Shown here: positions 2,518-38,700 of the stretch, piece after piece | Numbering within the stretch: position 1 is the stretch's first letter | How the letters are laid out: every line of letters starts with the position of its first letter | IMG/VR virus record: IMGVR_UViG_3300017728_000002 | Location: 21,482-85,481 of that record | DNA length: 64,000 bases | From: a virus | Direction: 5' to 3' (one strand) | Position numbers and translations under genes: made by a program | Notes under the pieces: model-generated | Told to the model about the DNA's origin: nothing | Seen by the model: only the letters and a program-made list of their open reading frames with translations | The model's database searches: none

Positions 2518-3945
2518 ATGTCTGACAATTTGAAAAAGTTGCGTCTTTACGAAGACGTATTTAATTCTGATGGGATGACCGACGAGAACTCGTTGGCCAA
2601 TGCTCTGATGACCCAACCGGATGTTCTTTCTCCGGTAATCACGCACCTTTCTGGGCGCGAAGACAAGCGTTTCCCACTCTCCTTCCTTACCGAGGGTATG
2701 GGCAACGTGAAGTACATCAATGATGTTGAGTATGACTACCCTGTTATGGGGCGCTTGAACAAAAGCGTTCCGTGCGTTGGGAATGGTACAATCTCTGTCA
2801 ATGGAGGTACTGTCTCTTTCACTGATCGTTGGTTTGTTAAGAACTACATCATTGAGTTCGGTGATACTAACAACACCCAGGTTCGTTTGACCGGGGACCC
2901 CGTGCAGACTGCCGGTGGTTGGAAGTACAACTGTGAGTTGGTAACCAGTGACAACACAATTACTGTAGGCTCCAGCAATTTGGCTGGTAAGCTGGCTGTT
3001 CAGCTCTTTGCTGCTAACGCGTTCTCCGGATCACGTGGTAACGAGAGCAACTGGGTCGCGCCATCCAAAATGCGCAACCAGATCAGCTTGATTCGTAAGT
3101 CATACCGCTACGAGGGTAACATGCCCGACCGTGTGGTGAACTTCGAATTCAACGTCGGTGGCCGTTCAACCAACTTGTGGTACGACTTTGAGGAGTACCA
3201 GCACATGTTGCGTTGGAAGGAGGAGACTGAGCTTGCTATGTGGTACTCACGTTACAACCGTGATTCTGACGGACTCATTCACCTTCGTGATGAGAACGGC
3301 AAGGTTATTCCTTTGGGCAGCGGTGTGATCGAGCAGATCCCGAACGTAGACACATACTCTGTGTTGACGGCAGCCAAGCTGAAGGGTGTGGTTCGTGATG
3401 CTCTGTATGGTGCGTCTGATGCTTCCGACATGAACATTGTTCTCTTCACCGGCCTCGGTGGAATGGAAGAGTTTGACAACGCCATGAAGGATGAGCTTTC
3501 TAGCCAGACTTACATCAAGAACACCGATCCCGGATCGTTCGTTGGTGGAAGTGGTCGGAACCTTTCCTTGGGTGGTTTCTTCACTCAGTACCAGCACATC
3601 GATGGTCACACCATCACTGTGCGTCACTTGCCCTTGTTTGATCACGGTGCACGTGCTCTTGCTAGTGAGCGTCACCCTGTTACGGGTCTCCCACTTGAGA
3701 GCTACCGCATGATCTTCTTGGACATGAGCACATACGACGGAGAGAACAACGTCAGCATGATTACCCGGAAGAACCGTGAGTTGGTTCGTTGGGCAGTCGC
3801 TGGTGCTTCTGTTCCTCCTGGGTTTGCAGGAAACGCCTTGCGCGCGACCGACGTAGACGGATCTGCAGTGCACTTCCTTAAGGAGTGTGGTATCAGCATC
3901 CGCCGTGCTACGAATTGCTTGCACCTGGAGTGCGTGCGTAGCTAA
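2518..3945 (+). CDS. Major capsid protein (crAss-like)
   Basis: 475 aa; motifs MTDENSLANAL, FPLSFLTEG, RNQISLIRKS, GSGVIEQI, LFTGLGGMEEFDNAMK, HPVTGLPLESYRMIFLD; strongly biased codon usage; followed by a hairpin. Confidence 0.92.
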   Translation: MSDNLKKLRLYEDVFNSDGMTDENSLANALMTQPDVLSPVITHLSGREDKRFPLSFLTEGMGNVKYINDVEYDYPVMGRLNKSVPCVGNGTISVNGGTVSFTDRWFVKNYIIEFGDTNNTQVRLTGDPVQTAGGWKYNCELVTSDNTITVGSSNLAGKLAVQLFAANAFSGSRGNESNWVAPSKMRNQISLIRKSYRYEGNMPDRVVNFEFNVGGRSTNLWYDFEEYQHMLRWKEETELAMWYSRYNRDSDGLIHLRDENGKVIPLGSGVIEQIPNVDTYSVLTAAKLKGVVRDALYGASDASDMNIVLFTGLGGMEEFDNAMKDELSSQTYIKNTDPGSFVGGSGRNLSLGGFFTQYQHIDGHTITVRHLPLFDHGARALASERHPVTGLPLESYRMIFLDMSTYDGENNVSMITRKNRELVRWAVAGASVPPGFAGNALRATDVDGSAVHFLKECGISIRRATNCLHLECVRS

Positions 3946-3986: not shown

Positions 3987-4004
3987 TATCTAACAATCTA
4001 TTTC

Positions 4005-4169
4005 ATGGCTGTACGTAAAGGCTTGTGGGCGAACATTCACGCAAAAAGAAAGCGCATTGCTAGCGGTTCTGGAGAACGGATGCGCGCAGCGGGTAGTAAA
4101 GGCGCGCCTACAACAGCAGCTATGAAAGCATCTAAAAGCAAGAAAAAAAGCCGCAAAAAACGGAAGTGA
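4005..4169 (+). CDS. Small basic protein (54 aa, GLWANIHAKRKR family of aquatic phages); absent from ORF track
   Basis: Manual translation MAVRKGLWANIHAKRKRIASGSGERMRAAGSKGAPTTAAMKASKSKKKSRKKRK*; TGA overlaps next ATG. Confidence 0.8.
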   Translation: MAVRKGLWANIHAKRKRIASGSGERMRAAGSKGAPTTAAMKASKSKKKSRKKRK

Positions 4170-4474
4170 TGCCTGTCAAGAAAAAAAGACAAGCTTCCAT
4201 TCGGCGCACTACACGTGGTAAAGGGGCCAACTACCGCTCTACCAAGTCTGGTGCTGGTATGACTAAAAAGGGCGTTGCTGCCCATCGAAGAGCTAACCCA
4301 GGGTCCAAGCTAAAAACAGCTGTTACGGGTAAAGTAAAGAAGGGATCAAAATCGGCTAAACGCCGCAAGTCGTATTGCGCTCGCTCACTGGGACAGCTTA
4401 AAAGAAGCAGCGCTAAAACTCGTAATAATCCTAACTCACGTATTCGTCAAGCACGAAGACGTTGGAAATGCTAA
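4169..4474 (+). CDS. Small basic phage protein (DUF6321-like)
   Basis: GAGMTKKGVAAHRRANPGSKLKTAVT...RRKSYCARS...NSRIRQARRRWKC pattern recognised from aquatic phage proteins; TGATG coupling. Confidence 0.75.
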   Translation: MPVKKKRQASIRRTTRGKGANYRSTKSGAGMTKKGVAAHRRANPGSKLKTAVTGKVKKGSKSAKRRKSYCARSLGQLKRSSAKTRNNPNSRIRQARRRWKC

Positions 4475-4477
4475 GTC

Positions 4478-5266
4478 ATGCCCTACAAAACATCTAAGAA
4501 ATCCAAGAAGCGCATTATGCGTGCTGGGGGTACTTCTCCAGTAAGTACTCGTCCTGCACCGAAAAACCGGTACGAACGGGATAAGCAGCAAGAGCTAAAA
4601 GGTAAAGCAGAAGCTGAGATCAAAAAGCAGAATGCAGCTTTGACTAAAAAACGCGCTGCCGCTAAAGCCAAAAAAGCAGCAGAAGCTAAAGTGGCTAAAG
4701 GGAAAGCTGCTGGCAAAACCATTGCAGCAACCAATATCAATGCTAAAGGAGTTAGAAAAGCTTTGGGTAAAGGCACTGTAGGAGCAGGGAAGGTTAATTT
4801 GTCTCGGCCTAAAACTCCTCCTAAGCCTAAAAGCGCATATGCATCAGCCAAGAAAAAAGTTAGCAATCTTGATTCGCTAGTTTCTCGTCGTAATAAATTG
4901 ACCAAAGGCACTCCTGAATACAATCGGGTTCAGAACAAGATTAACTCTGCATACGGTAAAGGCCCGCAGCGTGACGCTTCTATTAAAAAGGCAACTGCTA
5001 AGAAAGCAGGCCCTGTGTCTTCTGGAAAAAAGCCTACGTTGAAACTGGCAAAGGCTCCTGCTAAGCCAACTCAAACACCTGCACAAAAGCGTAAGGCCGC
5101 TGCTGCAAAAAGGAAGACCGGTCGTAAAGCTACTAGTGCTAGTCGTAAAACAGCAAGCAAGGCTAAACGCGGTTTGGCTAAGTCTAATCGCGAGATTAAG
5201 TCTATTGCTAACAAGGCCAGCAAAGCTCGTAAGAAGGCTGCTATCCGTCGTATTCGCAAAGGATGA
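4478..5266 (+). CDS. Lys/Ala-rich histone-H1-like basic protein
   Basis: 262 aa, very rich in K/A/R; internal LDSLVSRRNKLTKGTPEYNRVQNKINSAYG helical segment. Confidence 0.7.
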   Translation: MPYKTSKKSKKRIMRAGGTSPVSTRPAPKNRYERDKQQELKGKAEAEIKKQNAALTKKRAAAKAKKAAEAKVAKGKAAGKTIAATNINAKGVRKALGKGTVGAGKVNLSRPKTPPKPKSAYASAKKKVSNLDSLVSRRNKLTKGTPEYNRVQNKINSAYGKGPQRDASIKKATAKKAGPVSSGKKPTLKLAKAPAKPTQTPAQKRKAAAAKRKTGRKATSASRKTASKAKRGLAKSNREIKSIANKASKARKKAAIRRIRKG

Positions 5267-5391
5267 ACGAGGAAGACGACATCAGCTTCTTGAATCCAAA
5301 ACGGGTTAAGAAGACTGAAGACAAGATGGAAAGCGGAGAGCTGACCTGCAACATTGACAATCCCGAAGAGTGCGAAAGCTGTAGTGGATGA
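5263..5391 (+). CDS. 42-aa acidic peptide ending in an RNR-alpha-like C-terminal CxxC tail; absent from ORF track
   Basis: MNEEDDISFLNPKRVKKTEDKMESGELTCNIDNPEECESCSG*; ATGA overlaps with both flanking genes. Confidence 0.75.
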   Translation: MNEEDDISFLNPKRVKKTEDKMESGELTCNIDNPEECESCSG

Positions 5392-5555
5392 AGAAGTTTA
5401 ACGGACATCGTTGCGAAAAGCGCAACCTGCCGGAAGCTGTTCTAGGCGTAAGATTCAATTCTCTAGGGCAGGGGACACGCGTGCAGTCAAACAAAACAAA
5501 GGTGGCTGCACGCCCCAAGAATTACGTAGAAACCCCCAACCATATAAATAAGTAA
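5388..5555 (+). CDS. Small basic hypothetical protein (55 aa); absent from ORF track
   Basis: MKKFNGHRCEKRNLPEAVLGVRFNSLGQGTRVQSNKTKVAARPKNYVETPNHINK*; fills the gap exactly with ATGA and TAATG overlaps. Confidence 0.55.
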   Translation: MKKFNGHRCEKRNLPEAVLGVRFNSLGQGTRVQSNKTKVAARPKNYVETPNHINK

Positions 5556-6361
5556 TGAGCGAAAAGATTGTTTACCTGTTGCGTCGTGACAACACCACAA
5601 ACTTGCCCGATGACGTATATGTAGACGCTAAGCGTCGTGTAGGTAGTGTCTTTGACAAGAACGGCAACCTTGTAAAAGGATTGAGCCTTCAAGAGCAAAA
5701 GTCTATCCTGCCTCACATCATTGGTATGGAGAACAACGATCCTGGATGGAACAACGCAGTGCGTAGGTTTTATGCAGAGATGAGCATTGAAGTTCCTCAG
5801 AAGGGAGTGGAGTTTGACATTTCAACTGAGGAAGATGGCCGTCCTAATAATCCTATGGATTACGTCAAGTTTCGTTTTGCGATTAACCACCCGCACGTAG
5901 CCGAAGAAGAAGACAAGGACATCAACGGTACTCGGTACTACTTCTTTGATCCAAAGCAAGACGAGCAAGAGCGTGTGGCTGAAACGCGTCAGCGTAAGGA
6001 TGCTTACAAGAACTTGATCTTAATCTGTGAGGATGAAGCCCGTATGGACGTTGTAATGAAAGCCAATGGGGAGTCTGTAACTGACTTGACCAAAGACCAA
6101 AAAGAACTGGCGTTAGAAGAAATGATGGAAGCAGATCCTGCTGAATTTATCCGTATCGCCAACGACAAAGACTTGGAGACAATCGCTTTGATTAAAGAGT
6201 GTTTGGACTGCAGTGTTTTGCGTAAAAGCGGCAACACCTATTTGTATGGTGATGAAGTTCTGGGAGAAGACATGGAACAAACCATTCGTGCTCTGAAGCT
6301 TAAGCGCAACAGTGGCATGCTACAAGACATCAAATCCAAACTTCAAGCCTTTCAATCATGA
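5555..6361 (+). CDS. Conserved crAss-like capsid-module protein (post-MCP gene)
   Basis: 268 aa; RPNNPMDYVKFRFAINHPHVA and C-terminal VLRKSGNTYLYGDEVLG pattern; syntenic position. Confidence 0.65.
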   Translation: MSEKIVYLLRRDNTTNLPDDVYVDAKRRVGSVFDKNGNLVKGLSLQEQKSILPHIIGMENNDPGWNNAVRRFYAEMSIEVPQKGVEFDISTEEDGRPNNPMDYVKFRFAINHPHVAEEEDKDINGTRYYFFDPKQDEQERVAETRQRKDAYKNLILICEDEARMDVVMKANGESVTDLTKDQKELALEEMMEADPAEFIRIANDKDLETIALIKECLDCSVLRKSGNTYLYGDEVLGEDMEQTIRALKLKRNSGMLQDIKSKLQAFQS

Positions 6362-7470
6362 ATCGACGTAGACGCACTAAAGGCTCTTTTCAAACCGACT
6401 CTGGTCGGATTGAAGTAGAGTCACCGCAATTGGCAGACTTTCTAGCCAACCTTTCTGCAGGGGGTGGATCTGGGGTTTTAGAAGAAGACCTTACGGTAAC
6501 CTTTGATGGGGGCGTAGGGGCTGCAGGTGAAGGCCAGGTGTTTGAAGCAGGAACCAGCTTAGAAGAAGTTCTGCGCACCATTTGCACCGGCGCTACTGCA
6601 ACTCCTTCACTGCAAGGGTTAGAGCTTTTTAGCCCAACTAATGTTTTGCTTACTTCGGGTCTGGGTCAGACGTTCTTGTTTGAAGCCGGTACAGAAGTTA
6701 TTGCTGCTTCGTATGATGTAACCTTGGTAAGCCCAGAGAGCTTTGAGCCAGCTGTTAATTCACTTAGCGTAATCCAGGGAGGTACTACATATAACGTAGA
6801 CGAGAACGAAACAGTCAATACTACAACGTCTGAAATTTCAGGTGATTTTGATGTTACTACATCTCTAGTAGTTGTTGCCAATCAGGTTTCAATGGGGGCA
6901 AATGCATCAGGAGACTTTCCGTTCACCTTTGGAGGCGCCAATACATCTCAAACGGTAACCTTTACTGCTTCTGCTAATTTGCTGGGCGGAGGATCTGAAA
7001 CTGACACGGTAAAAATGGAACATGTGTTGCCCGCGTTTGTGTTGAATCTTAGTGACGCTGAGTGGACAGGCTTGGTGATATACCTTGAAAATGCGCCATC
7101 GGCTGTTTCAACTGTAATTCCAACTTTGGGAACTATTCAGTGTACCAAGCAGACTTTACAGAGCAAAGCTAATTACGACGGAGAGCCATTTAACAATGAA
7201 GGGTATGTGGATGCTGCATCCCAAGTTCATGTATTGTGCGTGCCGTCAAACACATATCACACAGGAACTCCGGAGGTTGTAAGTATTTCAGGTATAGGGA
7301 GTAATGTGGTGTCAGGTGGGATTAGTCAAGTGTATTCAAATGTTTCTTTGCCTATAGGACCTGCTGGTTTAAACATGATTAGCGTAGATGCCAATCAGGA
7401 TTACAATTTGTATCGTTTTGTTAATGTGTCTTCTTTCGTGGAAGACACCCTCACTTTGAACTTCTCGTAA
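6358..7470 (+). CDS. Putative structural (head fibre/decoration) protein
   Basis: 370 aa, rich in Thr/Ser/Gly/Val (beta-type composition); GVGAAGEGQVFEAGTSLEEVLRTI segment typical of phage fibre proteins. Confidence 0.45.
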   Translation: MNRRRRTKGSFQTDSGRIEVESPQLADFLANLSAGGGSGVLEEDLTVTFDGGVGAAGEGQVFEAGTSLEEVLRTICTGATATPSLQGLELFSPTNVLLTSGLGQTFLFEAGTEVIAASYDVTLVSPESFEPAVNSLSVIQGGTTYNVDENETVNTTTSEISGDFDVTTSLVVVANQVSMGANASGDFPFTFGGANTSQTVTFTASANLLGGGSETDTVKMEHVLPAFVLNLSDAEWTGLVIYLENAPSAVSTVIPTLGTIQCTKQTLQSKANYDGEPFNNEGYVDAASQVHVLCVPSNTYHTGTPEVVSISGIGSNVVSGGISQVYSNVSLPIGPAGLNMISVDANQDYNLYRFVNVSSFVEDTLTLNFS

Positions 7471-7473
7471 ATC

Positions 7474-8610
7474 ATGCCTATTAATCTCGTTGACACTCTT
7501 GCAACCAGTCAGTTTGCAGAGCATAACCTTCTAGACCTGTCAGCTAACAACGTCAAGGGAATTGGGTTTTATGACACCTTAAGTGATGTCTTTAATCAAA
7601 GATCCAATCAACGTTGCTTAGGGTTTTTGGCATGTGTATCTGGAACTGAGTCACAAGCTGTGTATCAATACACGGCTACAACACTAGACACTTGGACCAG
7701 TCCTGACAGTTGGACTCAGTTAGGAGGGGCTGTTTCAGAAAGTTCTGATACAGGGTTGTCGCCGTACACAATGGACTTAAAGACCACCACGTCTTTAGCC
7801 GGAAAATACGATATAGCTTTAGCTCCTTTCTATACAGATTTTTCTAAAGTTCCTACCACGTTTGAGCTGCGGTTTGACAGCAAAAATAGCTTTCCGTATG
7901 ACATCAATACGCGAGGCTTGCATTCAGAAGCGCCTCAGTACGCTGAGCGGTGGACGCACTCTACAGGACCTTTTGTAGGTAAATTATCTTCAGATGTGTT
8001 GCCTGGACAAGTGTTTGTTAAAATGCGTGCAAGCTGGGGCACTGAGTTCAATGATTTGACTCACTCAGGAACTGTCGGGTGGAACGGATTAAGTGGAGAC
8101 GCTTTGTCTCAAGCAGCTACAGGAACTTGGGTAGCATCTGGCGGTACAGCCGCAGAGATAGAGCTTAGAGCTTTTCTAGAAGGGCTACCTCCGGTAAAGG
8201 ATACTTTGCACTGGTTGTACATAGGAGACTATCTAAGTTCTCCCTTGTACCTCCTTCATGATCCAAGTGCAGGAGCTCAATCTGGAACTCAAGACATCAG
8301 TAGCATAGCAGCTAAGTGGACGCCTGTGAATGCGGCTTTGATGAGTTTGAATGTAACTCGAGCTGCTTCAGGGGGCGCTGTAACTCCTGATACAAGTAGC
8401 AATTTTCAAATCACTTACCCGGACACTAAGCGTGCAAGCTTGTTGACTGTTGGCACAAGTCGCGAAAATGGTTTTTCTACTGTTGATGACTTGTTAAACA
8501 TGCGTATGGTCATTACGCTGAATCCTATTTTCCAAACGTTTGCAGAAAACTACTTGGCAACTGCATTTCCGCAGATTGAGTTTGATGCACAGATCTACGT
8601 GGAACTGTGA
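7474..8610 (+). CDS. Putative head fibre/structural protein
   Basis: N-terminal NNVKGIGFYDTL...RCLGFLACV...YQY...WTQL module resembles fibre N-terminal domains; lies in structural operon. Confidence 0.45.
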   Translation: MPINLVDTLATSQFAEHNLLDLSANNVKGIGFYDTLSDVFNQRSNQRCLGFLACVSGTESQAVYQYTATTLDTWTSPDSWTQLGGAVSESSDTGLSPYTMDLKTTTSLAGKYDIALAPFYTDFSKVPTTFELRFDSKNSFPYDINTRGLHSEAPQYAERWTHSTGPFVGKLSSDVLPGQVFVKMRASWGTEFNDLTHSGTVGWNGLSGDALSQAATGTWVASGGTAAEIELRAFLEGLPPVKDTLHWLYIGDYLSSPLYLLHDPSAGAQSGTQDISSIAAKWTPVNAALMSLNVTRAASGGAVTPDTSSNFQITYPDTKRASLLTVGTSRENGFSTVDDLLNMRMVITLNPIFQTFAENYLATAFPQIEFDAQIYVEL

Positions 8611-14549: not shown

Positions 14550-17080
14550 TGGCTGATATAAGCAAAGTAAACGGGGTTGCTTTTTCTTCGATAGGGGGTA
14601 TGAATGGCGTTGCTAAAGCAAGCATAGCAAGCCTTAATGGTCTTTCCGCTCCTTCAAGTACGGTTGCGCCTGTTGTTTTCTATGACGCAAAAAATGCTTC
14701 AAGCTACGGGGGATCAGGAACGACATGGTCTGATTTGAAGTCGGGAGGTTATGATATGACTCTGACCAACGGACCCGTTTTCACTTCGGGCACTCCAGAT
14801 CACTTTGATTTTGATGGTGTCAATGACATAGCTGTAAACAACAGCAACGGGCCGCAGATATTTGGGGCATCCAGTGCATACAGCTTCGAGGCTTGGGTAA
14901 GGTTGGATGGGTTGTTAAGCGCGTCAAGTACCACACCGATCTATTCTATCGCAAGTAAGTCGTCTAATAGCAACGCGCTTCCAGGTTGGAAGTGGACGCT
15001 TAGAAGCGGTTATTTTAATGGCATGATGTTGCGGCTCGGAGAATCGGGTGCTACTGTTGACATAACACCAAGCAGTTCAGACTTTCTAACCGCTATAAAC
15101 GACACAACGGACTTTCACCAAGTGGTCATTACAGTTGATGAGTCTACTGCTACTGCTTTTGTCTATGCTGACGGTACTCAATACTCTACGACTGTCATTA
15201 GTTATAGCGGCGGGACTTTAGGTCAGAACCGAAACAACACGAACAAATTGTGTTTAGCGCGTTATGCCGACGCAAGCTCGTCGTTTGAGTTTAATGGAGA
15301 CATCAGCGAAGTTGCCATCTATGACAAGGTGCTTAGTCAAGCTGAAGTGACCGCGCTGTACAACGCAAAAGCAGCGAGCTTCGGAATATCTGTTTCCTCT
15401 TTTTCAGGTATTCTAGACACTTACACGGGTTCGGCGGCGGCTTACTCTACGCGGCGCCTTGCAATCGCTACCACAATACTCATGCGTGTTCGCAGGGACA
15501 GCGACGATGCAGAATTAGACATTGGCTTTGACTCAAACGGAGACCTAGATTCTTCAGCTATCGCCACCTTCGCAGGCAGTGCAAACGCTTTTGTGGTCAC
15601 TTGGACGGACCAATCTGGAAACAGCAACAACGCTACGCAAAGCACGTCAGGCAGTCAGCCCAAGATTTATGACGGGTCGGCTGTGATTACAGAGAACGGC
15701 AAGCCAGCTTTAGACTTTGATGGTACTATGGGTTTCGCAGTAAATCTGACTGCAACCTTTACCAACATAGGTATTTGGTCAGTGCATGCGGGAACAGACG
15801 GGGGAATGTTCGGAAGCTATCCAGGTTCCTTTCCACGTCATTTTGTATCTCATGCCATGCAAAGTGGTTTTTACCGCAGCCGAATAAGAAATACAGCAAA
15901 GGCTATGCGAACCGTAGACGTAGGCACAACAATTGACACGCAAGTATTACAGCATCTACACTATGACCGAACAAATTTAGGCGTAAGTATTGACGGTGGA
16001 ACCTTGCAAACTATTACCGCAACAGTTGGGGATATTGCGACTTCAAGCAATGGTTTTAGGGTAGGTGGAAGTCCTAATGCATTTAGTCTAAATGGAAGCC
16101 TGCAAGAGCTTTTAGTTTGGAACGCTGACCAATCCAGCAACCGCAGCGCGATAGAAGGTAACATCAACGCTCACTATCAAATCGGAAACTTCGGTACGCC
16201 TACGTCTGGATTGCTTGCTACCTACACAGGGGCTGCCGTAGCATACTCCGTGAGACAGTTAGCAAACACTGCTACTAAATCTATGCGTATTGTAGTAGAT
16301 AGCGCATCCTCAGTAGGTACTGTAAATTCTAGTGATCCACAATACGACATTGGGTTTGACGCTAACGGAGACTTAGACACGGCTGCCATTGTAACTGCGT
16401 GTAACAACCCGTCAGGAACTAACTATGATGCTTACGTAGTAAAATGGTATGATCAAGCTAGCGTAGGCGGGACAAACGATGCGGCAAACTCAGGTTACAC
16501 TACCCTGCCTAAAATAGCAGAGGCGGGAGTAGTAATTACTGAAAATGGAGAGCCCGCTATTGAATTTGGGGAAGGAGGTAACGCTAAGATTCTAGAGTTT
16601 GATGCTAACATGGCCGTTAGCCTTTATTACTCTGTTTTTGCCGTGAGGAAAGGCACGACTGCAAATGGTCAAATGTTTTTAGCCACTCAGGATGATAACA
16701 GATACTGGGCCGACCTTGGATTAAGCGGGAACGACAAGCACCTTATGGATGGCTTTAATGGAGACAACGGAGACTACACTAACGAGTGGGCTCGGTATCG
16801 AAAAAATGGCTCTGCTGCTTTTTCAGGAATTACCACTCGATCAACGTATAAAAGCACATTCTATAACAACAATCAGTTGTTGATGTCATTTCTTACGGAG
16901 GGGACTGCTTTAAATAGGTCGGCAGTAACCGAGTTTTGTATTGGTGCATACCAAGGATTAATCCTTCCATTCCAAGGTACTTGTCAAGAGTTTATAATGT
17001 GGCAAGATTCTAGTAGCAATCAGAGTAGTAACGCTTCGTCTATTGAAAGCAATATGACGACCCACTTTTCAATTTCATAA
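14549..17080 (+). CDS. Receptor-binding/tail protein with LamG (ConA-like) domain plus two tandem related lectin-like domains
   Basis: YDAKNASSYGGSGTTWSDL...FDFDGVND...FNGDISEVAIYDKVLS; duplicated AAAYSxRxL...DIGFDxNGDLD...WxDQ...PKI...ITENGxPA units. Confidence 0.8.
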   Translation: MADISKVNGVAFSSIGGMNGVAKASIASLNGLSAPSSTVAPVVFYDAKNASSYGGSGTTWSDLKSGGYDMTLTNGPVFTSGTPDHFDFDGVNDIAVNNSNGPQIFGASSAYSFEAWVRLDGLLSASSTTPIYSIASKSSNSNALPGWKWTLRSGYFNGMMLRLGESGATVDITPSSSDFLTAINDTTDFHQVVITVDESTATAFVYADGTQYSTTVISYSGGTLGQNRNNTNKLCLARYADASSSFEFNGDISEVAIYDKVLSQAEVTALYNAKAASFGISVSSFSGILDTYTGSAAAYSTRRLAIATTILMRVRRDSDDAELDIGFDSNGDLDSSAIATFAGSANAFVVTWTDQSGNSNNATQSTSGSQPKIYDGSAVITENGKPALDFDGTMGFAVNLTATFTNIGIWSVHAGTDGGMFGSYPGSFPRHFVSHAMQSGFYRSRIRNTAKAMRTVDVGTTIDTQVLQHLHYDRTNLGVSIDGGTLQTITATVGDIATSSNGFRVGGSPNAFSLNGSLQELLVWNADQSSNRSAIEGNINAHYQIGNFGTPTSGLLATYTGAAVAYSVRQLANTATKSMRIVVDSASSVGTVNSSDPQYDIGFDANGDLDTAAIVTACNNPSGTNYDAYVVKWYDQASVGGTNDAANSGYTTLPKIAEAGVVITENGEPAIEFGEGGNAKILEFDANMAVSLYYSVFAVRKGTTANGQMFLATQDDNRYWADLGLSGNDKHLMDGFNGDNGDYTNEWARYRKNGSAAFSGITTRSTYKSTFYNNNQLLMSFLTEGTALNRSAVTEFCIGAYQGLILPFQGTCQEFIMWQDSSSNQSSNASSIESNMTTHFSIS

Positions 17081-29745: not shown

Positions 29746-32700
29746 ATGTCTGAAAACAACACTACTCCTGATTCTTCTTTTGAATCTCGTCAGGAAGACG
29801 CAGGGCTTACGCCTAAATCCAACATCCGTTTTGGCTTAAAACAAGACCCGCTCTATCAAGAGCAAGGGATGTTTCAAAGCCGTATGACCGAAAATCCGCA
29901 GGTCAAAGGAATAGACGTACAGAAGTATGCCCCTTACACAGGGTACATTACCCACCTTGGCACGCGTGATGCTATGCGGGCACGTGGTCAAAGCGTTGCA
30001 GAAAAGTGGGGCAATGGAATTTATCAAGCTGTAGTAGGCGAAGTAGTTGGGGGCAGTCTTCAAGGCTTAGGAGCCTTAGGTATGCTGGTTGACAGTGAGA
30101 AGAACTTTCTTTATGAGCTAGGTGAAGCCATCAATGAAGGAGCAAGAGACGCTACTCCTATTTATAAGCATAGCGACAAAGCGTTTGCGTTCAATGATGC
30201 TGGTTGGTGGGCCAGTAATCTGGGCAATATTCTTAGCACTGTAAGTATGTTGGTGCCAGGTATGGCAGTGTCCAAAGGTGCAAGTCTAGCTGCTCGAGGT
30301 CTTGTTGCAGCAGGTAAAGCTGGCAAGGCTGTTAAAGCAGGAAAAACCATTGGCAAAGCTGGAAAGGTTGCAGGTAAGGCTGCAGGTGAAGCTGCTGACG
30401 TTACTGCAGATGCTATGAAAGCTTCTGTGCGCGCACAGCGGCTAGAAAAAACCATGCAAACAGTTGCAGGTGGTTATGGCATGCGTCACGCTGAAAACAT
30501 TCGTGAAGGCGTAGATGTCGCTGTCCAAGCTGAGGAAGAGTTTATGCAAGATGGGCGGGCTTTAGAAGATTTTAAAGGGACTGTTGCGTACGATCAATAC
30601 CTCAAGGATCACGATCAGAAAGCGCCTATGAACAAGCAAGAGCTTGCTTCGTATGTCGGAGGTCAAGCAGCAGTGCGTTCGTATCAATTTAACATGTTGA
30701 ATCTGGTATTTGATGTGTTTCAAATGGGTACAATTTTTAAGCCCTTTAAAGCTGTAACGCGCGGTCAAGGTGTAGGTAAAGTAGGAGCTGCAGCCGCTGG
30801 TAAAGCAGCCGCTGGATTGGATAAAGGAACGCGTGCTACTCGAGCTTTAGAGAAAAGCAAAGGATTCTTAACTGAAGTGGGCAAAGCTGCTACAGAGGGC
30901 ATAGAAGAGTCAATCAACTTTATGGGAAGTGGCGAGGGCATGGCCCGTGCAGAATATTTAAGAGGGGTAGAGACTGGAAGCTTTGGAGAACGTCTTGACG
31001 ATTACTTCCACGACTCGCACTTGTATGAAAGTGCTTTCTGGGGTTTCCTTGGAGGAGGAGTGTTTCAAGGTCTTGGGTCCATTATGGGCAAGAAGCAAGA
31101 TGCTGCTATGACTTCTTTGCTTCGCCAGCAAGAAACCTTGGTTCGCGAAAGCGCAGAACTAGCCAAGGCTGAGAAAAGTGGCGATACAGAAAAAGCCAAT
31201 CAAATTCGAGCCAGGGTAATGGCTGATTTGGGCATCCGTGCTAGCCAATCTGGACGTGTAGATCAATTGCTAGATCAGCTCAATAGCGATGACTTCATGA
31301 AGCAGCTCCAAGAGCAAGGTCTGTTGGGCGAAAAGAGCATTGAAGAAGCTCGTAATGAACTGATTGAAGGCGTATTAAAGCAAGAAAAAGACTACAAGAA
31401 GATTGCTGAAGTTGCGGAAGAATACGGGTTGAGTAGTCAGGAAATGTTTGTCTTGCTTAAACAGCAGAACTCGTATGATGCTGGGTTAAAAAGCATTGCT
31501 GAGAAGCTTGAAGCAATTGACGATGCAAGCATTACTGAAGATCAAAAGCTTGCAGCTAAGTTTCAGCTGCGCGATTCGTTGGTTGAGCTTCAGAAGAAGG
31601 TAAAAAAGGAAAAGGGCAAAGACTCAAAGACTCCGTTTGGAGCAGAGTTAAAAGCGTTGCAGGAAGAGCTTAAAGACAAGGAGAAGCCTGCTGAGTTTGA
31701 GAAACTGCTGACCTACGAGGCTTTCAATCAAGCAAGGTTGTTGGCCGAACAAACCAGGTTAAAGCGAAAGCGTGCTGAGCTTACTACTGAACAGTCTCTT
31801 GCATATACTCGAACTACAGTAAATGCGTACAACAAGAATCAAGAAAAAGTCATTGCTGCTAGTTTCAAAAAGAGAGTTGCTGAAGAAGAAAATCTAGATA
31901 TTCTCAATAAACTTCTTGAACAGGCCAAACGAAATAAAGCTAAAGACCAGGAAATACTAATATCTGAGCGCATTGCTGAATTGAAAAAAACCAATGCTGA
32001 CAAAACAGATGCAGACAAAGCTCAAGAGGAAAATGAAGAAGGAGGTACTCCTGTACCTAAAGATGACTCTACTGAAGAAAATGAGCCTCCTACAGAAAAT
32101 GAACCTTCTAAAGAGAATGAGCCTCCTGAAGAGAATGATCCTGATGTAAGTGATGTTCTACCTGAAGGAGTAGTTCTCGAAGATGATGACGAGGTAGACT
32201 ACACCCTTGCTTATAGAGAGCCTTACGCTGATGGTTCTCCTTTTGATTTTGGTTCATTAACCAATCAGGAACGAAGGTTTTTAGATGCTTTAGATAACTT
32301 AGATACCGCTGAAACAGTGGAGAAAGCTCAAGCCCTTGTTTCTTTTGTACGCAACTACATTTTAAAGCAGCAAGAAGAAGGGAAGCCAATTAAACGCAAG
32401 TTTGATGGTAAAGTGGTTGACCAGGCTATTGCATATTTAGCAGAGGCTGAAAAAACTCCACCAGCTGCACCACAAGATTCTGCACCACAAGATTCTGCAC
32501 CACAAGATCCTACTTCGGACCCACCTACAGACCTACCTACAGATGACTTAGAGAATAGTACAGTCAAGGCTTTGAAAGCCATTGCTCGTCAAGAAGGGTT
32601 GACAGGTTATTCTAAGTTGAACAAGGCAGAGCTAGTTGCTGCTATTCGTGCACATCGTGAGCAAGCTACTTTGTTTCCTGAAAATAAAGTAACTCCACCT

Positions 32701-35700
32701 ACAGATGAATCGCCTGCTGAAAAGAAACGGAGAGAATCGCAGCAAAACCGTGTTGAGAAGCACAGCAAAGAACTTTATGAAGCGTTAGAAAGCTATGCAG
32801 AAGCTGTAGCTAATAGAGATGCACTTCAAGATTCTAAGAATGCAGATAGTAAGGAAGCTGTTGCTGCTGAACTAGCCGCAGACAAAGCGGCAATGAAAGT
32901 GTTAAATGCCTTAAATAATCTTACTAGTCACAGTCTGTTGTCTCAACAGAACAAAGTAGAAAGCTACATCTCTTCAGACTTACGTGAGTATATGGAGCTA
33001 GCTACAGAGACTTTAGAACAAGATGGTTACACTTCAGATCATGTAAAACCTGGTCAAGTATATGACGAAACGTTGTCGGTAGATGTGGAGATTGTTAACG
33101 ACGAAACTTTAGAGCCAGGAGTAGAACTTATTCAAAAAATTAATCAACCCGAAATACGTAAAAAAGGAAAGGTGATACAGCGTGGCCAAGTTGTTGTTGT
33201 ACAAGGGCCTTTGCTGAGTAAGCCAGTTATTGAACCAGAAACAGTTGAAGCTCCAGAAGGTCAGATCAAGATGATCATGAATGACTTGATGGAAGCGTTT
33301 TTGCAGCAGATGCAAATTCGCACAAGCGTAACCATGCCTACTACGCGTGTTAGGGAACACGCTCTTATTGAAGGGACTCGCTTGACTTTAGAAGGGCCGG
33401 TGGCAGAGCAGTATGAAGCGCTCATGTTTGCCTTGACTAACCCGTCAGCATCGGTTACAATTCGCATTTCAGACAATCAAGTAGAGGTCAAAAACCCCAT
33501 TTACAAAACATCGGTAAACAACAAGCTTGGGGTCAAATCTTTGACGCGAAAGACTGTTGGGTCAAAGACGTATACCTACGAAAACGAAGAAGACAACTCT
33601 CCTGACTACGAGGTTGTCGTTGAGTATCAGGGTAAAACTGTAGTCATTGGAAATGTACCTAGGGTGGGTACGTTGTTGAAGCAAGCTTCGCGTCTTCAAA
33701 ATCAATACCGCAATCAGCCAACAGGCGATGACGCAGACGCAAACCCATACTGGAGAAACGCATATGCAGATGCCAACCTCAATGCATTGCAAGCCATTAG
33801 ACATGCAGATGCGATAGCTCTATTTAGAAAATATCTGGATTCTCAAGACAGCGGATCTATCTCGTTTACTGGGTTGTCTGAGCAAATTGCCCTAGACGGC
33901 AGCTTTAAGCGCGGTAGTCTGCTTCGTCCTAGCGATCAAATGGATACGCTAAATATGCATCCAGAAGTCACAGATGCCATAGACGAACACGGGCTGTGCG
34001 TCATGATGACTGATCCTTCTAGTGGAGAGCCTTATCTGTTGAATCTAAAAACGGGTTTAAAGACTGCAGTACCATACCAAGATGGTGTGATGGCTATGAA
34101 TGCTCAAGCAGGGACTTATGCGTTTAAAAACCAGTCTAACAAGATCTCTAGTACCGGAGCAGTTTTCATTCCTATCCGAGATCCCAACTCACCTTTAAAG
34201 CCAATGTGGGTTCGCATGCCCGACATGACTTTGAAAGAGGCCAATCGTACCGACTTTGTAAGCAACATCTTGTACGGACCAGGCACTTCAGAACAAAAGT
34301 TTGAATTGCTTCGAAGTGTAATGTCTACACCGCCTCCAAGTGTGACATCTGAAAGTCAGATCATGGAAGGGTTCACAGGCGCAGCTTTTATAAGCGGACC
34401 GTCTAATGGACAACCTCGATTGGTTATTCTCAAAGACAGGAAGATTGTCATGGACTTTAATCCAGATGGCACGCCTCGCACTGAGATTCAAAAAGCTGTT
34501 CTTGAGCAGCTGAAGTTTAGGCTAGATGCAAAATCGCCCGAGCTTGCCAGCTACGAAAAAGAAGGAAAACGAGACGAGGAAACTAGGCAAACTTTAAAGT
34601 CGTTAGCTCAAAGCATTAAGCAAAACGGTAGAATGCCTATTGCTCCCGTTGTTAAAAAAGACAGTGCGGGTAATGATGTAATCATAGGCTACCACCATCC
34701 TGTTCCTGCTGCACGATTTGAACGAGACAGAGAAGCGCAATCTCAAAACCAACTGTTCAACCCAGAGGCTCAGAGTACCATGCTGCCTATTGCCATTGAT
34801 ATGGCACGTCTTCAAGCTCAAAACCCAGAAGCTCCTGCATCACCAGATACAAAACCTACAGACACTTCTGATCCGAAGAAGTCCAACGAAAAAGGGGGGG
34901 AGTCGACTGATTTTTGGAATGAATCAGATGACGGTGCAATGTTTATGACTGTAGAAAAGGCTTTAGCAAGCGACTTTTACGCCATGTCTACCTCTAAAGA
35001 TCAGTTAGAAGCGGAGTTGTGGCTTGCTAAAAACCTGCCTCACGTTCCGTTTCGAAGAGTCAAGGGCCTTATTGAACGTGGCGGTGTTACCGCATACGGT
35101 ATATGGGAACAGGGTATGATCAGGGTCAGTGATATATCTGTAGTAGGTACAGAGTATCACGAAGCCTTGCACGCTGTAATGGACACATACCTTTCTCCTA
35201 AGCGAAGAGCAAAGATTATGGCTGAAGCCCGTGCTAAGTATGGAGACTTAGGGCCTATCAAGCTAGAAGAAAAGATTGCTGAGGCTTTTCGAGAGTACAT
35301 GCTAACGGAAGGAAAAAGCATGACAGAGAAAAGTGCACTGCGCCGGTTTTTCTCTGAGATACTGGCATTGGTTCAAGCCATGTTCCAAGGACAATACCGT
35401 ACTCGGCAGTTGATGCAAAACATCAACAGAGGGAGGTATGCGTATAAGCCTAGCCAGCGCTCTAAAAACTTTCTGACTAAGTTCAGTAAGGTTCCTGCCT
35501 TTGATGCTGCTGAAATGAGCGAGCTAGAGCAGGTCATGCCTTTTTTGGTAAACTACATCCTTAAAGACATTCGTGAAGCATTTGTAGGGAACAATCCAAA
35601 AGACGTGCTTATGCGACGTTATGGAAGGGAAGAAGACGCCCAAGTACTTGAAGGATTGCTCCAAACGATAGCAGAGATTAAAGACTTGTCTGTAGAATCA

Positions 35701-38700
35701 GATGAAGACGGAAATACAATAGAAATTCAGCGAGAGAAAAAGAAGCTCATAGCTGAAGGTATTATTCGCGTAATTTTTGATAGTCGTGGGTTGTTCCAAT
35801 ACATGATTAAGTCTTCAAGTAGAGCGTCTGAAGAAAGAAAACTAGAGATCTATGATCGGTTAGGTCATAACGAAGAAGTACTGGTTGAACACTTCAGTAC
35901 AAACCCAAGAGTGCAGCGCATGATTATGCAAGCAATTGCAATTGATGCCAGCACAGGTACCACGGACATAGAGCAGAACTTCTCTGCTAGCATAGCAGAA
36001 ATCAATCCTATGGATAAGGTTCCTGCCAGTATCAAGAACTTGATTTCAAGAACCATTTACATCCCTGGAGACAGAAGTGGTCGCTTGATTGAAACAATCT
36101 TAGGTAATCAAGGTACCGAAGCAGCTCTTGAAGCCATTGCAGAAGTGTCAGGCACTGACGTAGATAAATCTGATGCCTTCAGTCGATTTGGCTTGCCTCG
36201 GTTTTTACAGTTTGAAACGGTGTATCCTTTCCTGTTAAACCAGTTGAGTTCGCTGCCTTCATACGAAGCTATGGAAACCCGGATGCTAGAGTTGAGCGTG
36301 TACAACCCAAGCTTGGCATCTATTGTTTTGGCATTGCGTAAAGACGCTGAGCCAGGCACACTTACAGAACTGCAAAAACAATTCTATGTGGGCATGAAAC
36401 GCGCAAGCTCAGAAGAGCTGAACGTTTCTTTGGAAACCCAGTATGATGAAAGAGTTGAACGGAAATTTCAAGTACCTGTAGTAAAAGATGAGTTCATTTA
36501 TGAACCGGCCTGGCATTTGGTCCAACGTAACAAGGAGGCTGTTTACAACGCCATCCTTCAGTTTACTCCAGCGGAAAAGGAAAAGGTCCTAAATGCTTTA
36601 AGTGCGTTGGCAAAACAGCGTAACGAAACTCCTGAAGTAAGAGTTAAAACCATTAAAATTTTGGTTAGGACTTTTCAAAAACTTGAGTTTTCTACTATGG
36701 ACCCTTCTGCATTGGCTAACGCTATGCATGTTATGTCTAATAATGAATTAGGCGGGTTAGCTGATATGCTTGAACGTCTCATTCTTGCTGGAAATGAAGC
36801 GCAGACTTCAGCAATACTTAGGGAGGTGGTACGAATTATGAAGCTTGCTGACGCAGACATGGGCGCAGTTCAAAGCTCGTATATGTCTAATCTGAAAACC
36901 AAGTATGCTCACGTCAATCCTTCTTATTTAACCGAAGAATTAGACCGCTTAAAAAGCGCCTTTAAAGAAGAATACCTTAAAGAAAGGTTTGCCCACAATG
37001 CTCATTTAGAAGAGAGTATGTGGCATATTATGTTGGATGAAGAGTCTTTAACCTATCGCAGGTTTGGACAACTGGGCCCGCATGCATACACCGATATGGA
37101 TGTAGCGCAAAGGCTTGAGTATGACCTTCTAGCATTGTTTAGAATGGGTAAAAATGCTCAAGGACGTCAGATCAGAGTTACGGGGTACTCTGCAATCCCT
37201 ACACCTAGCGATGCAACTGGATCGTTTATGGTCAGTAACGACTTTGTACATTATCCTGAAAACGTTAAAAACAGGATTTTAGCCAGTATCTACGACGCAG
37301 AGACACGTAAAGACGTAACCCATATGTCTTTGCCTATTGATCGTAGTAAAGTAGACATCAATAGCATAGAGTCTAAAGCCGAGTATATGCGTGCTTTGCT
37401 AGAGCAAGAAGCCGCGGCATTGCTGTCTATTCCAGAGTTCAAAGAAGTCATAGACAAGCTACAAGTTCCTTTAGGGTATGGACCAGTCGAGGGACGCAGT
37501 CGAGATGAGGGCCGCGTTACGATGGTCAACTCATATGTAGCCGCTACATATGTATCCAATTGGAACGTGTCTAATTGGATGGGTGGAACCATTGATCACT
37601 TTGGAGGAGACGTTACCAAGTATCAAAAGCGTTTTAAGCAGATTATGAGCCCTGGGCAAACCAGCGCAGATAAAGGCACGTTTAGAAACGTAACCATTGA
37701 AGATCCCGTAGTTTTTGAAGACTGGGCAACAGAAGTAGAGTACTCTGACAATGGCAAACCGGTTAAGAACGCGGACGGAACTTACCGTCGTATTCCATCT
37801 GCCATTGATCGTGCTGATGCACAGAGCTATGTAACGCTAGACTTTTGGGAGCGGATGCTTTCTTCTCATGGAGAGCTTACAGACTATAAGAAAGCGGTCA
37901 TAGAAAAAGCCCGTAAAGGAGAGGCTCTAAGTGTGTCTGAGCGTTCAGTATTTGCTCCATACAAGCCCTTCTACTTTGGATGGGTTCAAGGCCAGCCGCA
38001 CCAACTTAAAAACTCTGTCATCCCACTTTTACCACCGGTCAAAGGTCAAGCTCCCATTAGCGTAGAACTAGAGGCTATGCGTAAGTGGATGGTACACCCA
38101 GATAATAAAGTAGATCAAATCACTTTGAAGTCTGCGCACAAGGTGGGTGTGACCAGCAAGGCTACTTCTATGTTTCAGGATGGCAAGTTCAAAGCACCAG
38201 AGCCTGGGTACACTCAGTACGACTTGCCCATGGAGTTCCACCGCAATCAAGTGTCTATTACAGAACACAACAACCACAATGGAACAGTAGGCTTGGGTAC
38301 TCAAACAGGTCCAATCATTATGTCTAACCTCAGGAATTATGAGGGGTTAGGGGAAGTACACATCCAAAAGTTGCTTAAGACAGAGCAACGCATGATGAAC
38401 ATGAAACTCAAGGAGCTTAAAGGCAAGCTCTTTGTACAAGGCACAGAATTAGGCAAGAACGGCGAGGAAGATGTAAGCAAGCGCACAGTTCCAGACGTAG
38501 CTCGTGTACGGCAGTATGTGCTAGACAACGTGCGTGATGATGTGCATCCAGCAGTTCTGGAAATTCTAAGCTCTCCCTTGGCTTCAGCAGGACGCATTAG
38601 TCCTTTGGTTGCTTTTGCGGTAAACCAAACTTTAGCAGCTGCCGTTCAAAAGGACTTTAAGAAGCAGAAAGTAACAGGCGGTATGCAGGTACAAATCTCT

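What the first reader, a model, noticed from the sequence alone, without database searches (positions are those of the whole stretch)
5263..5391. Free-standing mimic of the ribonucleotide reductase C-terminal redox tail
Seen: an unlisted 42-aa ORF, translationally coupled on both sides, ending TCNIDNPEECESCSG. Established: class Ia RNR large subunits of the eukaryote/Bacteroidota type end in a C-x-(I/L)-(D/E)-N-x-x-x-C-x-x-C-(S/G)-(G/S) tail whose CxxC shuttles electrons from thioredoxin/glutaredoxin to the active site. Inference: a detached shuttle that boosts or competes with host RNR re-reduction in trans, or a thioredoxin decoy or metal-binding peptide. Its location in the capsid operon rather than among nucleotide genes is unexpected.
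Basis: partly seen in the sequence, partly recalled or inferred. Interest (0 to 1): 0.72.

Follow-up and report, generated by a model that had tools for sequence, protein, structure and literature searches.

The report
Phage micro-protein copying the RNR redox tail
A marine crAss-like phage with no ribonucleotide reductase of its own carries a strongly conserved 42-residue protein whose end copies the three-cysteine "recharging" tail of its likely host's reductase, so it probably acts on the host's supply of DNA building blocks; that effect is untested.

Summary
Window 5263-5391 (+) is a 42-codon ORF with ATGA overlaps at both ends. Its last 14 residues (C-N-I-D-N-P-E-E-C-E-S-C-S-G) match the extreme C-terminus of eukaryote-type class Ia RNR large subunits. 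The only significant PDB hit is yeast Rnr1 871-888. In cellular genomes the motif sat only at the end of ~780-830-aa RNR alpha genes.

It is a real gene. At least 100 viral contigs carry it, and it forms 57 clusters among 1.84 billion proteins, nearly all 34-161 aa with the motif at the C-end. Only this frame is open in all 58 DNA variants. Median dN/dS is about 0.09 and the three Cys are invariant.

None of 26 carrier records has an RNR or glutaredoxin gene, nor do 16 crAss-like relatives have RNR. All four (near-)complete genomes of the clade keep the peptide. Viral RNRs of this class keep their own tails, so it is not the split-off tail of a phage NrdA.

Similarity to RNR is confined to the tail. 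The conserved N-terminal helix matches neither the alpha linker nor the beta docking tail.

Best reading, inferred only: a redox-active surrogate tail acting on the host thioredoxin-RNR relay. Whether it boosts or throttles is open.

This scan met similar peptides on other DNA. I found no paper describing them.

The parts
5263..5391 (+). 42-aa acidic micro-protein (12 D/E, 5 K/R). This is the free-standing RNR-tail-like gene, stop codon included.
   Evidence: Only this frame is open in all 58 DNA variants, and raw pN/pS is 0.22 against 1.4-2.0 in four of the other five frames; the codon-aligned antisense frame gives 0.35 and has stops in 23 of 58 variants. Median dN/dS is 0.09.
5287..5292 (+). 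Invariant Phe9-Leu10 at the start of the conserved N-terminal half.
   Evidence: Invariant in 50 aligned family members and in 58 DNA variants that use 2 and 6 different codons.
5296..5334 (+). Predicted helix, residues 12-24 (contains K16 and K21), ended by invariant Gly25. Possibly a docking element.
   Evidence: AlphaFold2 on the family alignment: helix 12-24, block pLDDT 82-85, mean 74. Conservation. No profile similarity to RNR alpha pre-tail segments or to the RNR beta C-terminus.
5347..5388 (+). RNR-alpha-like tail, residues 29-42: C29-N-I-D-N-P-E-E-C37-E-S-C40-S-G. The CxxC lies two residues from the C-terminus.
   Evidence: PDB profile hit to yeast Rnr1 871-888. The same motif ends RNR alpha in 27 of 27 cellular loci and in 14 of 30 sampled Bacteroidota RNRs. 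C29, C37, C40 and P34 are invariant, and both Cys codons are used.
4478..5266 (+). Upstream 262-aa Lys/Ala/Arg-rich basic protein. Its TGA overlaps the peptide's ATG.
   Evidence: No Pfam or PHROG match. Replaced by shorter basic proteins in relatives.
4166..4474 (+). 102-aa basic protein (DUF6321) ending ...RRRWKC. In relatives it lies directly upstream of the peptide.
   Evidence: PF19846, 41 bits. Synteny in L021 and L312-L316.
5388..5555 (+). Downstream 55-aa protein starting MKKFNGHRCEKRN. It is conserved in all relatives, with or without the peptide.
2518..3945 (+). Major capsid protein of a crAss-like phage. Context only: it marks the structural or late module.
   Evidence: phrog_11589, E 7e-89. 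31-34% identity to crAss-like phages of Bacteroides and Flavobacterium.

Best explanation
The ORF encodes a translated, redox-active micro-protein that works as a free-standing surrogate of the C-terminal 'swinging arm' of the host's eukaryote-type class Ia ribonucleotide reductase (NrdA).

Shown:
- The last 14-16 residues reproduce that tail, including all three cysteines, the Pro, the acidic residues and the position two residues from the C-terminus.
- The gene is widespread in marine phages that have no RNR.
- It is under strong purifying selection.

Inferred:
- The CxxC pair cycles between dithiol and disulfide. It would be reduced by the host thioredoxin-type reductant that normally serves NrdA, and it would reach the oxidised active-site cysteine pair of host NrdA (C217/C443 in the Flavobacteriales enzyme aligned here).
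- The conserved N-terminal helix (F9, L10, K16, K21, G25) replaces the missing covalent tether as a docking element.
- My preferred net effect is that a pool of soluble tails keeps host RNR recharged while phage DNA is made. The phage would thus raise or sustain dNTP supply without carrying an RNR.
- Competitive throttling of the same relay is almost as likely and is listed as the first rival.
For: - Tail identity and C-terminal anchoring: and the chance estimate.
- The matched cellular enzymes are true class I alpha subunits. They have the catalytic Cys/Asn/Glu set and the YY pair and a eukaryote-like beta ending FTLDAEF.
- The likely host phylum, Bacteroidota (crAss-like capsid), carries this tail type in 14 of 30 sampled RNRs.
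- The gene is real and constrained. At least 100 viral loci carry it. It forms 57 clusters at 50% identity. Median dN/dS is 0.09 with synonymous sites saturated. Only this frame is always open.
- Both CxxC cysteines and the upstream Cys are kept in every variant seen. That fits redox cycling better than mere binding.
- 0 of 26 carrier records have RNR and 0 of 26 have glutaredoxin, so the partners must come from the host.
- All four complete or nearly complete genomes of the crAss-like clade keep the peptide and none has RNR.
- Background, from my own knowledge and from PMC6382339 citing Zhang et al. 2007: the eukaryotic CX2C tail is indispensable for regenerating the active site. That the tail can act in trans between R1 protomers is my own recollection of Zhang et al. 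2007; I could not retrieve that paper.
- Most class I RNRs end in a disordered CXXC tail (PMC9669993).
Against: - No binding, redox or activity test was possible.
- Host NrdA already has a tethered tail, so a free copy must compete with it. A boost is therefore not obvious on kinetic grounds.
- The gene sits in late, structural or lysis operons rather than with replication genes.
- Outside the tail there is no detectable similarity to RNR, and residue +1 after the first Cys is Asn in more than 90% of the aligned phage peptides but Ser in all the bacterial RNRs compared. The family therefore has constraints of its own.
- The host is unknown.
Confidence: 0.3

Rival explanations
1. Competitive decoy or inhibitor. 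The peptide occupies the tail-binding route to the NrdA active site, or soaks up the host reductant, and so throttles host RNR. This could stop host replication or keep dNTP levels below what dNTP-sensing defences detect. The yeast inhibitor Sml1 is thought to act in a comparable way by interfering with the R1 C-terminal domain.
For: It rests on the same mimicry evidence. A conserved helix plus tail looks like an anchor-plus-warhead design. Some family members carry an N-terminal membrane helix (P0055, P0056), and one (P0044) is fused behind part of an M15 endolysin; tethering of that kind suits sequestration better than shuttling. Defences that sense raised dNTPs exist (Clover, PMC12265719). 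Most characterised small phage proteins are inhibitors (own knowledge).
Against: These phages have no RNR of their own and need host-made dNTPs. Both CxxC cysteines are invariant in every variant, although a pure binder or trap could tolerate or even favour losing one. Nothing was tested directly.
Confidence: 0.25
2. Thiol-disulfide relay aimed at something other than dNTP supply. The tail is used only because it is a good substrate for host thioredoxin or for the RNR disulfide. The peptide would then pass oxidising or reducing equivalents to phage proteins, for example disulfide formation in virion or lysis proteins, as the small CxxxC protein A2.5L does in poxviruses.
For: The gene is consistently in late operons. 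It directly follows a two-TM holin-like gene in 33 of 77 loci and an M15 endolysin in 7. In this phage it lies between small basic proteins with conserved cysteines (...RRRWKC and KFNGHRCE). Some variants carry extra N-terminal cysteines.
Against: No sulfhydryl oxidase or active thioredoxin was found in the carriers. The neighbours differ between lineages, so no common client protein is evident. The poxvirus analogy comes from my own knowledge and was not tested.
Confidence: 0.1
3. A metal-binding, structural or lysis-timing peptide whose Cys motif resembles the RNR tail only by convergence or ancient exaptation, with no present link to RNR or thioredoxin.
For: Three invariant Cys plus invariant or near-invariant acidic residues could bind a metal. 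It lies in structural or lysis operons. Homology to RNR outside the tail is not detectable.
Against: 11 of 14 identities with yeast Rnr1, the same distance from the C-terminus, and the same SG/GS terminal alternation as in RNRs are hard to reach by convergence. In cellular genomes the motif occurred only on RNR alpha. Zinc-ribbon or rubredoxin-type sites need four Cys in two knuckles, and this peptide has three.
Confidence: 0.15
4. A non-functional remnant of an nrdA 3' end, or a chance ORF.
For: None beyond its small size.
Against: dN/dS of about 0.09 and the open frame in all 58 variants. At least seven different gene contexts. No RNR remnant anywhere in the genome. The start codon lies within -11 to +6 nt of the upstream stop in 67 of 70 loci.
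Confidence: 0.01

Closest known systems
C-terminal redox tail (CX2C 'swinging arm') of eukaryote-type class Ia RNR large subunit (yeast Rnr1 871-888; NrdA of Bacteroidota, Bdellovibrionota and others)
   Same: C-x-[IL]-[DE]-N-P-[ED]-x-C-x-x-C-[SG]-[GS] at the extreme C-terminus. There are three cysteines, a hydrophobic residue two positions before the first Cys, and an acidic character.
   Different: It is not attached to an RNR barrel (no PF02867 in the genome). Its own conserved helix precedes the tail and is unrelated to the RNR linker. Asn replaces Ser or Ala after the first Cys in more than 90% of the aligned phage peptides. It is encoded by phages in late operons.
Small protein regulators of RNR (yeast Sml1, Hug1, Dif1; S. 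pombe Spd1)
   Same: They are small, largely disordered proteins that act on the large subunit. Sml1 is reported to interfere with the function of the R1 C-terminal domain (own knowledge; PMC11941123 for Sml1 as an R1-binding inhibitor).
   Different: There is no sequence relationship (no Pfam family matched at E <= 10). Those regulators carry no copy of the CX2C tail and are cellular, not viral.
Free C-terminal peptides of the RNR small subunit used as competitive RNR inhibitors (e.g. mouse R2 FTLDADF, herpesvirus R2 nonapeptide; own knowledge)
   Same: The principle is the same: a free copy of a subunit's mobile tail competes with, or substitutes for, the tethered one.
   Different: Those peptides copy the beta docking tail and are synthetic. 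This one copies the alpha redox tail and is natural. The beta tails of the matching enzymes (FTLDAEF) show no significant similarity to this peptide.
Poxvirus A2.5L, a small CxxxC adaptor in a viral cytoplasmic disulfide pathway (own knowledge)
   Same: A small, late, virus-encoded cysteine-pair protein that would relay disulfides.
   Different: There is no sequence similarity, no partner oxidase or thioredoxin in these phages, and A2.5L has no RNR-like motif.

Membership tests
Class Ia RNR alpha C-terminal redox tail (eukaryote/Bacteroidota type) | CxxC pair two residues from the C-terminus | tested here: met
   C37-E-S-C40-S-G-stop. The spacing is the same in 27 of 27 cellular RNR tails.
Class Ia RNR alpha C-terminal redox tail (eukaryote/Bacteroidota type) | Upstream third Cys followed by x-[IL]-[DE]-N-P-[ED]-x | tested here: met
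   C29-N-I-D-N-P-E-E. Profile hit to yeast Rnr1 871-888, E 3.4e-4. Bacteroidota tails.
Class Ia RNR alpha C-terminal redox tail (eukaryote/Bacteroidota type) | Covalently attached to the RNR catalytic barrel (PF02867) | tested here: not met
   The ORF is 42 aa and flanked by unrelated genes. There is no PF02867 match in the complete genome or in 25 other carrier records.
Class Ia RNR alpha C-terminal redox tail (eukaryote/Bacteroidota type) | Homology extending into the linker that precedes the tail | tested here: not met
   Profiles of the peptide's N-part found no RNR among 27 and 56 RNR sequences with their tails removed.
Class Ia RNR alpha C-terminal redox tail (eukaryote/Bacteroidota type) | Dithiol-disulfide exchange with thioredoxin or glutaredoxin and with the active-site cysteine pair | not testable with these tools
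   This needs biochemistry.
Bipartite mimic of both RNR tails (beta docking tail plus alpha redox tail), as proposed by earlier notes of this scan for other peptides | The N-terminal part resembles the C-terminus of the cognate beta subunit | tested here: not met
   A profile of 15 beta tails (FTLDAEF type) ranked the best peptide 36th of 12,560 sequences, with no significant E-value. The motif is very short, so the test is weak.
Thioredoxin/glutaredoxin/NrdH fold | A thioredoxin fold of about 75-110 aa with an active-site CxxC after beta-1 | tested here: not met
   42 aa, no Pfam match at E <= 10. The predicted structure is one helix plus a tail.
Sml1/Spd1-type RNR inhibitors | Sequence membership in the family | tested here: not met
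   No Pfam family matched at E <= 10.
Zinc-ribbon or rubredoxin-type metal knuckles | Four Cys in two CxxC-type knuckles | tested here: not met
   Only three invariant Cys, spaced C-x7-C-x2-C.

The most novel reading that the evidence does not exclude
The peptide is a detachable redox subunit with which phages take over the host's RNR. In the boldest version it draws the disulfide generated in the RNR active site and passes it on to the cysteine-bearing small virion or lysis proteins encoded beside it. Host RNR turnover would then act as the oxidant for cytoplasmic disulfide formation late in infection.
Probability: 0.06. Interest if true: 0.85.

Novelty: new variant of a known kind. Interest (0 to 1): 0.66.

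Why it matters
RNR sets the supply of DNA precursors, and its C-terminal cysteine tail is the step that recharges the enzyme. A widespread, strongly conserved phage micro-protein that copies this tail, in phages with no RNR, would be a new way for viruses to act on host nucleotide metabolism. It would also be a natural tool for probing how the tail reaches the active site, a step that is structurally poorly seen. The idea can be tested directly with a synthetic 42-mer and a purified Bacteroidota RNR/thioredoxin system. I found no description of it in four literature searches.

Tried and rejected
- Phage collection: megablast of 4000-7500 against cultured or deposited phages gave no match. tblastn of the peptide there gave only chance-level hits.
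- Fused forms: the word-index search for longer proteins found none. This is weak evidence because it needs three shared 5-mers.
- Homology beyond the tail: profiles of the N-part against RNR sequences with the tail removed gave nothing.
- 'Both tails' idea: a beta-tail profile against the peptide N-parts gave no significant signal.
- Complement of a tail-less phage NrdA: rejected.
- Phage-encoded redox partner: no glutaredoxin was found. The 'thioredoxin' matches in 13 of 26 carriers are a secreted Trx-fold protein without a CxxC, and it is absent from this genome.
- RNR in peptide-less relatives: the five contigs tested first are only 13-44% complete, so the result is uninformative.
- AlphaFold2 of a full-length Flavobacteriales NrdA, to see whether its tail docks, gave a poor model (mean pLDDT 63, tail below 50), so it says nothing.
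- Expression: no RNA holder is listed. One seawater run labelled metatranscriptomic but flagged 'probably DNA' has identical contigs over 5089-5274 and 5341-5564. I do not count this as evidence.
- The ESM Atlas returned only unnamed viral clusters. Zhang et al. 2007 could not be retrieved. No tRNA genes are in the window.

Full report
**1. The observation**

Window 5263-5391 (+) translates to a 42-residue protein ending TCNIDNPEECESCSG. Its ATG overlaps the TGA of the upstream 262-aa Lys/Ala-rich ORF (4478-5266). Its own TGA overlaps the ATG of a 55-aa ORF (5388-5555). Both junctions read ATGA. The protein is strongly acidic, with 12 D/E against 5 K/R. A pattern for the tail at an ORF end is expected 9e-7 times among the window's 1730 six-frame ORFs and occurs once.

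**2. The genome**

The window is bases 21482-85481 of a complete 85,481-bp viral record with direct terminal repeats.

- The capsid protein (2518-3945) matches the crAss-type major head protein. It is 31-34% identical to crAss-like phages whose recorded hosts are Bacteroides, Flavobacterium and other Bacteroidota.
- Public runs that hold the stretch are seawater or marine viral metagenomes.
- The genome encodes a family A DNA polymerase, a DnaB-like helicase, a primase-like protein, an amidase and an integrase.
- It has no RNR large subunit, no glutaredoxin and no thioredoxin.

**3. Is the resemblance to RNR real?**

Yes.

- A profile of the first nine family members, searched against all PDB chain sequences, gave one significant hit: yeast Rnr1 residues 871-888, the extreme C-terminus (...CAIDNPEACEMCSG, E 3.4e-4). 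The next hits had E of about 1.
- A back-translated scan of one genome for each of 185,579 prokaryotic species found 27 confirmed loci. In every one the motif ends the open frame two residues after the CxxC. The full-length frames are 780-833 aa; four are shortened by a contig end or an internal start.
- Five of these frames were checked and score 721-737 bits against PF02867.
- The aligned enzymes keep the class I catalytic residues and the YY pair.
- Their neighbouring beta subunits end in FTLDAEF-type tails, as in eukaryotes.
- The organisms are mostly Bacteriovoracaceae and other Bdellovibrionota, plus Bacteroidota (Chitinophaga, Chryseobacterium, Flavobacteriales), a Melainabacteria MAG and Thermoplasmatota.
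- In an even sample of 201 Bacteroidota genomes, 36 had close orthologues of this enzyme. Of the 30 tails I read, 14 were of this three-cysteine type (ACS[LI][DE][ND][PG]..C..C[GS][SG]). The rest had two other tail types.

**4. Is it a gene?**

Yes.

- The word-index search found eight clusters of 42-57 aa.
- A scan of IMG/VR found 100 viral loci, of which 80 were kept. In the 77 where my motif pattern located the ORF it is short and free-standing, and its last 38 residues align without gaps.
- The 58 distinct DNA versions encode 43 proteins. Synonymous sites are saturated (pS 0.86) while pN is 0.19. Median dN/dS for unsaturated pairs is 0.09.
- F9, L10, K21, G25, C29, P34, C37 and C40 never change, although two to six codons are used at each.
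- Only this frame is open in all 58 versions. The codon-aligned antisense frame has stops in 23 of them.
- A profile search of 1.84 billion representative proteins found 57 clusters at E <= 0.001. Nearly all are 34-161 aa with the motif at the very end, and none is an RNR.
- The more distant members keep a core of [DE]-K-[IV]-x-[SN]-G-E-I-x-C-N-[IL]-D-N-P-E-D-C-x-x-C-[GS]-[SG] behind variable N-termini. Two have an N-terminal membrane helix. One follows a piece of an M15 endolysin in the same frame.

**5. Anatomy**

AlphaFold2 on the family alignment predicts an unstructured acidic start, a helix at residues 12-24, a break at the invariant Gly25, and then the tail (mean pLDDT 74). Similarity to RNR stops about two residues before the first Cys.

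- Profiles of the N-terminal half found no RNR when the tails were removed.
- A profile of the cognate beta-subunit tails did not pick out the peptides.
- The residue after the first Cys is Asn in more than 90% of the aligned phage peptides but Ser in all the bacterial RNRs aligned and Ala in yeast. This points to one phage lineage with constraints of its own rather than repeated recent captures.

**6. Who carries it, and where**

- None of 25 other carrier records has an RNR large subunit (15 are at least 90% complete) and none has a glutaredoxin.
- Thirteen of the 26 carrier records (not this phage) have a 122-aa Trx-fold protein. It carries a signal peptide and lacks the CxxC, and it is absent here.
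- Viral RNRs of the same class keep their tails (about 78 read).
- Within the crAss-like clade (capsid at least 74% identical), none of 16 records has RNR. Seven have the peptide, including all three that are at least 96% complete. With this genome, that makes four of four complete or nearly complete genomes.
- In the clade the gene stays behind the DUF6321 basic protein. Where the following gene could be read, it is the KFNGHRCE protein. The block moves relative to the capsid gene.
- Some closer fragments lack the peptide at this spot.
- In other phage groups the gene directly follows a two-TM holin-like gene (33 of 77 loci) or an M15 endolysin (7 loci), and elsewhere other late genes. Its start lies within -11 to +6 nt of the upstream stop in 67 of 70 cases.
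- It is therefore a mobile small gene, co-translated with late genes.

**7. Mechanism**

What is shown: a conserved, translated peptide copies the part of host-type NrdA that carries electrons from thioredoxin-type reductants to the active-site disulfide, and its carriers have no RNR.

What is established elsewhere:
- The CX2C tail is indispensable for regenerating the active site (PMC6382339 citing Zhang et al. 2007).
- Most class I RNRs end in a disordered CXXC tail (PMC9669993).
- From my own recollection of Zhang et al. 2007, which I could not retrieve, the tail can act in trans between protomers.

What I infer: the peptide engages the same partners. Every variant keeps both CxxC cysteines and the upstream Cys, so I favour true redox cycling, with a soluble surrogate tail that keeps host RNR recharged (0.30). 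Competitive throttling is close behind (0.25). A disulfide relay to other clients (0.10) and an unrelated metal or structural role (0.15) remain possible. The late or lysis-operon context is not explained by the dNTP-supply reading, and I leave it as an open point.

**8. Known or new**

Four literature searches found no description of a free-standing or phage-encoded RNR alpha tail. Earlier notes of this scan report similar peptides in other phage genomes, and a bacterial family with a detached tail.

- I tested the 'both tails' idea from those notes on this family, and it is not supported.
- My data agree with the report that such carriers lack RNR.
- I rate this a new variant of a known kind: a known functional element, detached and carried by phages.

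**9. Limits**

The host is unknown and nothing was tested biochemically. The expression data are not usable.

Noticed in passing
L146:385-750 (-), L147:250-615 (+), L148:327-698 (+), L315:658-1023 (+): 13 of the 26 carrier records (not this phage), and a crAss-like relative, encode a ~122-aa thioredoxin-fold protein with a signal peptide. The active-site CxxC is replaced (VEFNASFN...), and many copies have a C-x-S-G-x-C motif just before beta-1. It sits next to a ~91-108-aa single-TM coiled-coil protein and often within a few genes of the peptide. Its function is unknown, and it is absent from this genome.
   Followed up: partly
window 5241-5408 (-): A 55-aa antisense ORF overlaps the peptide gene, and similar antisense ORFs of 62-67 aa are open in some relatives. 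This frame is interrupted by stops in 23 of 58 variants and looks like a by-product of the conserved sense frame.
   Followed up: yes
L150:15717-16790 (+), i.e. genome bases 15717-16790, outside the window: A tyrosine integrase (PF00589, E 6e-14) lies in a crAss-like genome with direct terminal repeats. That is unusual for this group, which is mostly regarded as non-integrating.
   Followed up: no
window 29746-45093 (+) and 57699-63242 (-): There are giant ORFs of 5115 aa and 1847 aa. The first may correspond to the very large virion-packaged RNA polymerase known from crAss-like phages (own knowledge). Neither was examined.
   Followed up: no
window 4005-5266 (+) and 5388-5555 (+): A run of very basic small proteins (54 aa; 102 aa DUF6321 ending RRRWKC; 262 aa Lys/Ala-rich) and a 55-aa KFNGHRCEKRN protein surrounds the acidic peptide. 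Each has one or two cysteines that recur in the relatives read. Their role is unknown; they could be internal virion or DNA-condensing proteins.
   Followed up: partly
proteins P0008-P0010, P0055, P0056, P0044, P0015: Family variants carry extra N-terminal parts: a Cys-rich start (CMCG...CQC), an N-terminal membrane helix, or fusion behind the end of an M15 endolysin.
   Followed up: partly
L020:6973-7461 (+) and relatives (DUF5675, PF18925): The DUF5675 protein found one or two genes downstream of the peptide in about 20 loci contains an H...(S/T)xGC motif. This recalls L,D-transpeptidase/YkuD-type catalytic sites, so it may be a cell-wall enzyme of the lysis module. This is my own reading and was not tested.
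   Followed up: no
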